A stretch of 9,059 nt of DNA from the IMG/VR virus record IMGVR_UViG_2563366954_000001. The stretch is one strand, 5' to 3'. Below, piece by piece: positions 7,347 through 7,769 of the stretch. Position 1 is the stretch's first letter. Every line of letters starts with the position of its first letter. Both the position numbers and the translations under genes were made by a program. The stretch is from a virus. Its lineage: Monodnaviria > Loebvirae > Hofneiviricota > Faserviricetes > Tubulavirales > Inoviridae. Below the pieces are notes generated by a model. It did not search any database and was not told where the DNA came from. It saw only the letters and a program-made list of their open reading frames with translations.

Positions 7347-7769
7347 ATGATGAGTAGAAATAACGAAACAAGCGGCGTTGAATTGGTTGTCGTGGGCGTA
7401 TTTGCTTTCTGTCTGGCAGTTGTTGCCTGGTTAATGAAAACTTTCGATGTTGAATGGCAAACAGCACTGGAAACTGCGCCTGGCCTGATAGTCTGGTTGC
7501 TTGTTGTCGGTGCGGGGATCTTTTTCGGGATCAAAATGGAAACAGGTCTTGTTCGCTGGGGTGCCCCACTGGCGATCGCCCTTCTGATTCCGGTATTCAA
7601 ACCAATTCTTAAGGAAGCTGCCGGAGTACGTGAAATGGGTGGGTTGGTTTTCGATGATATGGTTTCGTGGTACGGAACTGGCTGGGGAATGTCTCTGATG
7701 TTTTTTGGAATTCTTATCGTCGGATACGGTCTGCTTTATTGGTGGCACCGAAGAAATTCATATTATTGA
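7347..7769 (+). CDS. Hypothetical inner-membrane protein with about 4 predicted TM helices (140 aa)
   Basis: Four hydrophobic stretches (VELVVVGVFAFCLAVVAWLM; GLIVWLLVVGAGIFFGI; WGAPLAIALLIPVF; GWGMSLMFFGILIVGYGLLYWW). Weak SD AAAAGG. Located between the regulator terminator and the AT-rich cargo gene. Confidence 0.6.
   Translation: MMSRNNETSGVELVVVGVFAFCLAVVAWLMKTFDVEWQTALETAPGLIVWLLVVGAGIFFGIKMETGLVRWGAPLAIALLIPVFKPILKEAAGVREMGGLVFDDMVSWYGTGWGMSLMFFGILIVGYGLLYWWHRRNSYY

What the first reader, a model, noticed from the sequence alone, without database searches (positions are those of the whole stretch)
7347..7769. Small 4-TM membrane protein between the repressor terminator and the cargo gene
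A 140-aa protein with four hydrophobic helices and a short basic C-terminus (WWHRRNSYY) has no role in the canonical inovirus gene set. It follows a terminator, so it probably has its own promoter. Small polytopic membrane proteins in this position in temperate phages are often exclusion or immunity factors, or channel partners of a neighbouring effector (RexB is a size and topology analogue only, with no sequence similarity claimed).
Basis: inference. Interest (0 to 1): 0.6.

Follow-up and report, generated by a model that had tools for sequence, protein, structure and literature searches.

The report
Conserved membrane gene beside prophage repressor
A small four-helix inner-membrane protein of unknown function is a fixed part of the repressor region of E. 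coli filamentous prophages and sits next to a slot where anti-phage defence genes are swapped; it is not a dedicated partner of its neighbour gene and most likely protects the lysogen at the cell envelope.

Summary
The ORF at 7347-7769 is real: 140 aa, four hydrophobic helices, tail WWHRRNSYY. It is under strong purifying selection (dN/dS 0.015-0.13). The window is one copy of a CUS-1/Ypfphi-type filamentous prophage at dif in E. coli. The protein matches only PHROG 4174 (function unknown). It has no detectable relative in Pfam, NCBIfam, PADLOC or PDB, and none by fold search of a confident model (pLDDT 84). It is unrelated to RexB and TraS. There is no housekeeping homolog.

Context is the main result. 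In about 50 loci the gene lies directly after the repressor, which belongs to one of two unrelated families, and directly before a variable slot with at least 14 cargo types. Some cargos are defence genes: CBASS, a TIR protein, an AbiJ-like protein and an REase-fold protein. In complete E. coli genomes the gene is in 128; this 367-aa cargo is in 17. So the "partner of the neighbouring effector" idea is not supported, while the exclusion/immunity idea stays plausible but untested. The "own promoter" inference is not supported. Distant members (25-35% identity) occur in other inoviruses, an IncHI2 plasmid and a Vibrio conjugative element.

Best reading (about 0.4): a lysogeny-expressed inner-membrane exclusion factor. 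Interest is moderate.

The parts
7347..7769 (+). 4-TM protein gene (140 aa; conserved start at 7350). TM1 7377-7439, TM2 7479-7535, TM3 7560-7610, periplasmic loop 3 7611-7679, TM4 7680-7745, basic C-tail 7746-7766.
   Evidence: phrog_4174 E=1e-84
7337..7341 (+). Shine-Dalgarno-like AAGGA, 8 nt before the conserved ATG at 7350
   Evidence: read directly from the sequence; conserved in all leaders
7279..7316 (+). Hairpin 2 (10-bp stem, 9-nt loop) plus TCTTTATT. It is the 5' edge of the conserved 4-TM module and is terminator-like, possibly leaky.
   Evidence: invariant in 18 of 22 unique leaders
7262..7277 (+). Hairpin 1 (GTCTCA-GGAA-TGAGAC) right after the repressor stop. It belongs to the repressor module; three self-complementary sequence variants track the repressor type.
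6804..7250 (+). Cro/CI-type HTH repressor (148 aa), always the gene immediately upstream in this clade
   Evidence: Pfam HTH_3 and phrog_3557; census
7871..8974 (+). Variable cargo slot, here a low-GC 367-aa membrane protein (phrog_17621, function unknown)
8981..9007 (+). Degenerate dif-like junction (GGTTCGCACAATGACGTTATGCTAAAG), the right end of the prophage and of the cargo slot
   Evidence: read from the sequence; prophage lies next to hipA
1..14 (-). Partial dif site (reverse complement of the XerC arm), the left end of the prophage

Best explanation
The gene encodes a small N-in/C-in four-helix inner-membrane protein. It is a fixed component of the lysogeny (repressor) region of dif-integrating Enterobacterales inoviruses. 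It is most likely transcribed together with, or by read-through from, the repressor gene, and so made in the lysogen. There it acts on its own, independently of the interchangeable cargo downstream. I propose it is an envelope-level exclusion factor. Its conserved periplasm-facing surface (end of TM3, loop 3, start of TM4) would bind a conserved host inner-membrane or periplasmic component used for DNA entry. The Tol complex used by filamentous phages is the obvious candidate. That binding would block superinfecting phage or other incoming DNA. Shown here: gene reality, strong constraint, topology, fixed synteny with repressors, independence from cargo, spread to other mobile elements, and absence of known homologs. 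Inferred: expression in lysogeny, the exclusion function, and the target.
For: (1) It is a real, constrained protein: dN/dS 0.015-0.13, C-half 0.02-0.04. (2) It lies directly downstream of the repressor in every inovirus locus examined, with two unrelated repressor families (HTH 148-162 aa; RHH-like 60-86 aa), down to 27% identity (L013). From established knowledge, this is the classic position of prophage exclusion genes, such as lambda cI-rexA-rexB and the lactococcal sie genes in lysogeny modules. (3) It is independent of cargo: 128 genomes against 17 and 10 for two cargo types, and at least 14 cargo types overall. (4) It occurs about once per prophage copy: 234 places against 215 for pII. 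(5) It is retained intact when phage functions decay: the window has an in-frame pI deletion, KC-Dl-1 has pseudogenised pI and pIV, and the Pantoea island has only a 48-aa repressor remnant. That pattern points to benefit for the host or lysogen rather than a role in virion production. (6) Distant members occur on other mobile elements and next to defence systems: an IncHI2 plasmid directly upstream of type II CBASS, a Pantoea island next to PDC-M60, and a Vibrio conjugative element. (7) Charges give an N-in/C-in topology. Family-wide conserved residues (P74, P86, A92, W108-Y109-G110, W113, G126-Y127) cluster at the periplasmic end of TM3, loop 3 and TM4, and no charged residue is conserved in the membrane. 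That fits a binding protein better than a channel or enzyme. (8) Small polytopic inner-membrane exclusion proteins are well precedented, for example P22 SieA at 162-164 aa with three TM helices (PMC10883804). Inoviruses also encode exclusion genes (PMC8764522 listed; PMC6813254).
Against: There is no functional data of any kind, and the argument is contextual. There is no sequence or fold similarity to any known exclusion protein. Lysogens often carry several copies of the prophage (median 2, up to 16 places per genome), so the protein does not obviously prevent re-integration of the same phage. Arrays can, however, arise without superinfection. The protein is unusually conserved (89% identity where the backbone pII is no longer detectably similar). 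Exclusion proteins that bind fast-evolving phage proteins usually diverge, so this only fits if the target is a conserved host protein. The hairpin between the repressor and the gene may terminate transcription, in which case expression in lysogeny is not assured. By the literature, Ypfphi carries unrelated ORFs at this position yet still gives partial superinfection protection (PMC4266046).
Confidence: 0.4

Rival explanations
1. Lysogenic-conversion or host-fitness factor. The membrane protein changes an envelope property of the lysogen, such as stress tolerance, resistance to colicins, antimicrobial peptides or serum, or colonisation. It would not act against incoming phage DNA.
For: It is retained in decayed prophages and in a genomic island without phage genes. 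It is enriched in extra-intestinal pathogenic strains such as UTI89, NU14, UM146 and F11. CUS-1 and Ypfphi are reported to give modest in vivo fitness benefits (PMC4266046). It is conserved like a protein that binds a host component.
Against: The reported CUS-1 fitness phenotype mapped to puvA (a virion protein), not to this ORF. Ypfphi, which also gives a fitness benefit, is described as carrying unrelated ORFs here. The neighbourhoods are defence-rich rather than virulence-rich.
Confidence: 0.2
2. Phage life-cycle regulator at the membrane. For example, it could restrain assembly or secretion or virion production during lysogeny, or sense envelope state to tune induction.
For: It lies in the regulatory region, divergent from the replication and structural operon, about once per prophage copy. 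It is part of the circular episomal genome of the intact phage.
Against: The partner repressor is interchangeable between two unrelated families while this protein stays constant. The gene occurs on plasmids and islands with no inovirus structural genes. It persists after pI or pIV are lost. A closely related functional phage is reported to lack it (literature plus inference).
Confidence: 0.15
3. Membrane partner, anchor or channel for the downstream effector, possibly as a generic platform shared by many cargos.
For: It always sits immediately 5' of the cargo on the same strand. Several cargos are themselves membrane proteins: the 367-aa protein, the 159-aa and 262-aa proteins, and the 2TM-SAVED effector of the CBASS. 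The 367-aa cargo is never seen without it in E. coli.
Against: At least 14 unrelated cargo types, including soluble TIR, AbiJ-like and REase-fold proteins and a self-sufficient four-gene CBASS, follow the same nearly identical protein. Only 17 of the 128 genomes carry this cargo. The Vibrio member has no same-strand downstream gene. DNA homology stops exactly at its stop codon, so it looks like the conserved flank of a recombination hotspot.
Confidence: 0.1
4. Spurious or decaying ORF with no protein function.
For: No annotated function anywhere; overlapping reverse-strand ORFs exist.
Against: dN/dS is far below 1 at high dS. The family is full-length with conserved motifs across 25-100% identity. 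The structure model is confident.
Confidence: 0.01

Closest known systems
CUS-1 prophage orf1/orf1a region (E. coli O18:K1:H7) and PHROG family phrog_4174
   Same: Same gene family and same position. UTI89 (an O18:K1:H7 strain) carries it at 96% identity between the repressor and the dif-proximal cargo. It gives a full-length match to phrog_4174 (E=1e-84). The literature describes the two ORFs beside the repressor as having no homologs and unknown function (PMC4266046).
   Different: Nothing differs in kind. The equation of orf1/orf1a with these two genes is my inference, because the original paper (PMC135385) is not held. Neither source assigns a function.
Phage lambda RexB
   Same: About 140-144 aa, four predicted TM helices, and encoded in the immunity region downstream of the repressor on the same strand.
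   Different: No sequence relationship (hhalign probability 0.05%). There is no RexA-like partner. The downstream gene is interchangeable. No charged residue is conserved within the membrane.
Phage P22 SieA (inner-membrane superinfection exclusion protein)
   Same: A small (162-164 aa) polytopic inner-membrane protein made by the prophage and sufficient alone to block DNA entry. Its sequence types have diverged below 30% identity (PMC10883804).
   Different: SieA has three rather than four TM helices. The SieA motif FxRYPxEAxxFNK is absent from this protein (sequence). SieA comes from a tailed phage, and its target is the P22 ejection-protein conduit. No direct sequence comparison was run.
Conjugative entry-exclusion proteins of the inner membrane (F-plasmid TraS; Eex of SXT/R391 elements)
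   Same: Small hydrophobic inner-membrane proteins of mobile elements that transfer single-stranded DNA. Distant members of this family sit on a Vibrio conjugative element and an IncHI2 plasmid.
   Different: No sequence relationship to F TraS (hhalign probability 0.27%). The gene is not located next to traG/traT-type genes. Eex proteins were not compared.
Pf4 PfsE (inovirus superinfection exclusion protein)
   Same: An inovirus-encoded factor that prevents superinfection of the lysogen (PMC8764522, title and abstract listed).
   Different: From my own knowledge, not checked here: PfsE is a very small protein of about 30 residues that binds PilC. No similarity is expected and none was tested.

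Membership tests
PHROG phrog_4174 (unknown function) | Full-length significant match to the family profile | tested here: met
   E=1.1e-84, residues 2-140 on profile positions 1-139 of 140
Lambda RexB family | Sequence or profile similarity to RexB | tested here: not met
   hhalign of the family alignment A2 against lambda RexB: probability 0.05%, E=0.8
Lambda RexB family | Adjacent RexA partner gene | tested here: not met
   The neighbours are the repressor and a variable cargo. The 367-aa gene has no Pfam or PADLOC match, and the cargo differs between loci.
Lambda RexB family | About 144-aa four-TM protein in the immunity region, same strand as the repressor | tested here: met
   (resemblance only)
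F-type TraS entry exclusion | Sequence or profile similarity to TraS | tested here: not met
   hhalign of A2 against F TraS: probability 0.27%
F-type TraS entry exclusion | Location between traG and traT in a transfer operon | tested here: not met
   Inovirus lysogeny region. In the Vibrio element it lies alone on the opposite strand beside a VirB11-like ATPase gene.
P22 SieA family | Conserved cytoplasmic motif FxRYPxEAxxFNK (PMC10883804) | tested here: not met
   The motif is absent from the 140-aa sequence and from the family consensus.
Superinfection-exclusion proteins (functional class) | Expressed from the prophage in the lysogen | not testable with these tools
   Only position argues for it: same strand and directly after the repressor, with no independent promoter found.
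Superinfection-exclusion proteins (functional class) | Sufficient to block entry of phage DNA | not testable with these tools
   Needs expression and phage-challenge experiments.
Known anti-phage defence systems (PADLOC-DB v2) | Match to any defence-protein model | tested here: not met
   0 families at E<=0.01
   No Pfam or NCBIfam family. Present in only 128 of 5426 E. coli genomes, always in prophage context. Only 6 loci among 185,579 species-representative genomes.

The most novel reading that the evidence does not exclude
The constant 4-TM protein is the shared membrane sensor or platform of a modular defence locus. It would detect an event at the inner membrane, such as entry of filamentous-phage or conjugative single-stranded DNA, and hand the signal to whichever interchangeable effector cassette occupies the slot behind it (the 367-aa membrane protein, TIR, AbiJ-like, REase-fold, CBASS). 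On this reading the inovirus carries a plug-and-play defence system built on one invariant sensor.
Probability: 0.07. Interest if true: 0.8.

Novelty: new variant of a known kind. Interest (0 to 1): 0.45.

Why it matters
If the protein is an exclusion factor, it defines a new family with no sequence or fold relative among known ones. It is carried by the filamentous prophages of extra-intestinal pathogenic E. coli and by relatives in Salmonella, Klebsiella, Yersinia enterocolitica, Pantoea and plant pathogens. Outliers occur on conjugative plasmids. Its extreme conservation suggests a conserved host target such as the Tol entry pathway. Finding that target would tell us how these poorly understood phages enter cells; the Ypfphi review (PMC4266046) states that no Ypfphi receptor has been identified, and I found none reported for CUS-1.

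Independently of its function, the gene is a reliable landmark. The DNA immediately after its stop codon and before the dif-like junction is a hotspot that holds CBASS, TIR, AbiJ-like and REase-fold genes along with many unknown cassettes. The landmark can therefore be used to mine candidate defence genes carried by inoviruses.

Tried and rejected
- **Profile libraries:** Pfam, NCBIfam and PADLOC gave no hit.
- **PDB by sequence profile:** only noise (LH1 beta and PrgK TM helices, E>=0.02).
- **Named analogues:** hhalign against lambda RexB and F TraS showed no relationship.
- **P0063:** this 1067-aa hit with 8 stretches in the HMM search is an Ig-like repeat protein and was rejected as spurious.
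- **Hairpin 1 as a repressor operator:** rejected, because the palindrome occurs once in the window and not in the divergent promoter region.
- **Own sigma-70 promoter:** nothing convincing.
- **Rfam and tRNA scans of the window:** nothing.
- **Viral-contig scans:** the scan with the 367-aa cargo found no relative. The scan with the broad alignment A2 failed for lack of a conserved stretch.
- **Phage GenBank collection:** no 4-TM homolog. The nearest deposited phage by pII is I2-2 at 58% identity, which lacks the gene.
- **Literature:** the original CUS-1 paper (PMC135385) is not held. Searches found no functional study of this ORF.

Full report
**What the window is.** The 9059-base window is one copy of a filamentous (inovirus) prophage of Escherichia coli.
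- On the minus strand it carries pII (Phage_CRI and G2P_X_C), pV, coat and adsorption genes, a DUF2523 pVI-like gene, a Zot/pI gene and a pIV secretin.
- On the plus strand it carries a Cro/CI-type HTH repressor (6804-7250), the ORF in question (7347-7769) and a low-GC 367-aa gene (7871-8974).
- It begins inside a dif site and ends at a degenerate dif-like junction.
- In UTI89 the same prophage lies next to hipA. This is the CUS-1/Ypfphi family of dif-integrating phages described in PMC4266046.
- A 9565-bp circular record in strain TUM14759 is the intact episomal form of this very phage and includes the 4-TM gene.
- The window copy has an in-frame deletion of about 168 codons in pI.

- The ORF encodes 140 aa with four hydrophobic segments and the tail WWHRRNSYY.
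- A structure model built on 39 family members is confident (pLDDT 84, pTM 0.70) and shows a four-helix bundle, with the third helix kinked at prolines.
- Across the family, loops 1 and 3 are acidic (net -1.4 and -1.8), while the end of TM2 and the C-tail are basic. This gives an N-in/C-in topology.
- The gene is under strong purifying selection. dN/dS is 0.015-0.13 at dS up to about 1, and the C-terminal half is at 0.02-0.04.
- The conserved start codon is the second ATG (7350). The terminal Trp found in most homologs is a stop codon here.

**What it is related to.**
- The only family match is PHROG 4174, of unknown function.
- Pfam, NCBIfam, PADLOC and PDB sequences give nothing.
- Fold searches with either model give nothing significant.
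- Direct profile comparisons with lambda RexB and F-plasmid TraS are negative, with probabilities of 0.05% and 0.27%.
- Close homologs are confined to Enterobacterales: Escherichia, Klebsiella, Salmonella, Citrobacter, Phytobacter, Pantoea, Lonsdalea, Yersinia enterocolitica, Kosakonia, Pectobacterium, Rosenbergiella and Izhakiella.
- An exhaustive HMM search of 1.84 billion representatives found only 39 proteins. One of them is a spurious repeat protein.
- The real ones are 110-160 aa with the same four-segment layout. P86 is invariant, and P74, Y109 (in a W-Y-G motif) and G126 are nearly so.
- These conserved residues lie at the periplasmic end of TM3, in loop 3 and at the start of TM4. No charged residue is conserved inside the membrane.

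**Context is the main result.** I collected about 50 loci from complete E. coli genomes, species-representative genomes, viral contigs and assemblies.
- In every inovirus locus the gene lies directly downstream of the repressor gene, usually 86-113 nt away. It is on the strand divergent from the replication gene.
- The repressor belongs to one of two unrelated families: an HTH protein of 148-162 aa, or an RHH-like protein of 60-86 aa. Each is combined with several different downstream cargos.
- The synteny holds for distant members too. L013 (Salmonella, 27% identity) follows an RHH-type repressor. L014 (35% identity) closes a plus-strand operon of small genes, with a gap of only 26 nt.
- DNA homology between phages with different repressors begins between the two leader hairpins and ends exactly at the stop codon of the 4-TM gene.
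- What follows differs in almost every lineage. I counted at least 14 first-cargo types.
- In complete E. coli genomes the 4-TM gene is in 128 of 5426 genomes (234 places). The backbone pII is in 115 genomes (215 places). The window's 367-aa cargo is in 17, and the UTI89 cargo, a 29%-identical relative, is in 10.
- So the gene behaves as a core gene of these phages, and the cargo is accessory.

**The slot behind it is a defence hotspot.** Cargos with recognisable domains include:
- a DpnII/MboI REase-fold protein matching PADLOC candidates (M19);
- an AbiJ_NTD4 plus DUF7014 protein (NGF1);
- a CAP12/Pycsar-type TIR protein (L042);
- a complete type II CBASS on an IncHI2 plasmid: cyclase, E1-E2, JAB and a 2TM-SAVED effector.

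The plasmid segment shares its flanks with the inovirus contig L014. The 105-aa gene is 74% identical, the 4-TM gene 72%, and a convergent gene of about 780 aa is 87%. So this is the same slot with a different filling.

In Pantoea ananatis the gene sits in a decayed prophage. Only a 48-aa remnant of the HTH repressor is left, and the island also holds the three-gene PDC-M60 candidate system. A 27%-identical member lies alone on the opposite strand inside a Vibrio conjugative element, among genes for a coupling protein, a VirB11-like ATPase and a lytic transglycosylase.

**The leader.**
- Two hairpins separate the repressor from the gene. The leader folds at -28.7 kcal/mol, z = -4.5.
- Hairpin 1 comes in three self-complementary sequence variants that track the repressor type. 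It is not repeated in the promoter region, so it is a structure belonging to the repressor module, not an operator.
- Hairpin 2 is invariant in the E. coli clade and is followed by TCTTTATT. It is terminator-like, but the T-run is lost in L007.
- There is no credible sigma-70 promoter between hairpin 2 and the start codon.
- I therefore read the gene as expressed by read-through from the repressor promoter, or from a non-canonical promoter.

**Mechanism.** The facts to explain are as follows.
- The protein is a constrained inner-membrane protein with a conserved periplasm-facing surface and no conserved intramembrane charge.
- It is fixed next to interchangeable repressors and is independent of interchangeable cargo.
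- It is kept when the phage decays.
- It has moved to plasmids and islands in defence-rich neighbourhoods.

The explanation that fits best is an exclusion factor made in the lysogen. It would bind a conserved host envelope component and block incoming DNA. Filamentous phages depend on TolQRA for entry (established knowledge, also discussed in PMC4266046), which makes Tol the first target to test.

Precedents for small polytopic inner-membrane exclusion proteins include P22 SieA (PMC10883804). Inoviruses are known to encode exclusion genes (PMC8764522; PMC6813254).

I put this at about 0.4, for three reasons. Nothing functional is known. Lysogens commonly carry several prophage copies. The hairpin could limit expression.

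The rivals are:
- an envelope or fitness factor for the host (0.2);
- a membrane-level regulator of the phage life cycle (0.15);
- a partner of the cargo (0.1);
- a non-functional ORF (0.01, refuted).

**Comparison with known systems.**
- The gene itself has been seen before as an unannotated ORF. By my inference it is one of CUS-1 orf1/orf1a, described in PMC4266046 as having no homologs and unknown function. It is also PHROG 4174.
- It works like RexB, SieA, TraS or Eex only in the loose sense of size, membrane location and genomic position. Membership in each of those families was tested where possible and not met.

**Novelty and score.**
- I rate it a new variant of a known kind: a candidate new family of prophage envelope-exclusion proteins.
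- Interest is 0.45. It is a clean, testable, uncharacterised family with an unusually informative context, but its presence in a prophage immunity region is not surprising to a specialist, and its function remains inferred.
- The most novel reading not excluded is that it is the invariant sensor of a plug-and-play defence locus (probability about 0.07).

Noticed in passing
window 8976-9050: The prophage/host junction after the cargo gene is a degenerate dif-like site followed by a strong hairpin (GGCCGCTGCG...CGCAGCGGCC) and a T-run. It matches a 71-75-nt stretch in 441 plasmid records at about 93% identity, 401 of them conjugative and mostly from E. coli. This accounts for the 483 plasmid places seen in the first E. 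coli search. It could be a shared Xer-type site or terminator module.
   Followed up: partly
window 2130-2648 (-): The Zot/pI morphogenesis gene is an in-frame deletion derivative: 172 aa here against 341 aa in UTI89 and in the 9565-bp episome. It keeps the N-terminal Walker A stretch but loses most of the ATPase domain, so this prophage copy is probably unable to assemble virions by itself.
   Followed up: partly
NZ_CP128883.1 (locus L051, 1-9565): A 9565-bp circular 'untypable plasmid' of E. coli TUM14759 is the complete episomal (replicative-form) genome of this phage. It has an intact pI, the repressor, the 4-TM gene and the 367-aa cargo spanning the record origin. The same strain also has chromosomal copies.
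   Followed up: yes
window 7262-7277, and the matching position in L003, L005, L007 and L025: The hairpin just after the repressor stop codon has three different but always self-complementary sequences: GTCTCA/TGAGAC, GTACCA/TGGTAC and GTATGG/CCATAC. They track the repressor type. Four of six stem positions show compensatory changes.
   Followed up: partly
window 7871-8974; L001 9532-10641: The 367-aa cargo has two hydrophobic segments and about 30% GC, and matches phrog_17621. It has a 29%-identical homolog in the same slot in UTI89. No Pfam or PADLOC match was found, and no relative in the viral-contig scan.
   Followed up: partly
L003 10452-11206, L024 3453-4207, L025 3536-4420, L027 3574-4648, L049 4444-5489: Several cargos are two-gene cassettes that share one component and vary the other. 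The roughly 155-159-aa TM protein pairs either with a 91-aa ECs_2282 zinc-ribbon protein or with a 123-aa protein. A multi-TM protein of 216-262 aa pairs with different proteins of 89-101 aa. This looks like modular two-component systems.
   Followed up: no
window 155-403 and 549-797 (-): Two small ORFs at the dif-proximal left end are conserved in UTI89. They appear to correspond to the function-unknown YPO2281 and YPO2280a homologs described for Ypfphi and CUS-1.
   Followed up: no
L016 1056-6146 (-): The Pantoea ananatis island holding a 63%-identical 4-TM gene also carries a three-gene PDC-M60 system: a 1156-aa protein, a receiver-domain protein and a PNP-type nucleosidase effector. From memory this resembles the Detocs architecture. 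A ParE-like toxin is also nearby.
   Followed up: partly
E. coli genomes: The 4-TM gene, and hence the prophage, occurs at up to 16 places in one genome (median 2). This is consistent with the tandem arrays reported for Ypfphi.
   Followed up: no
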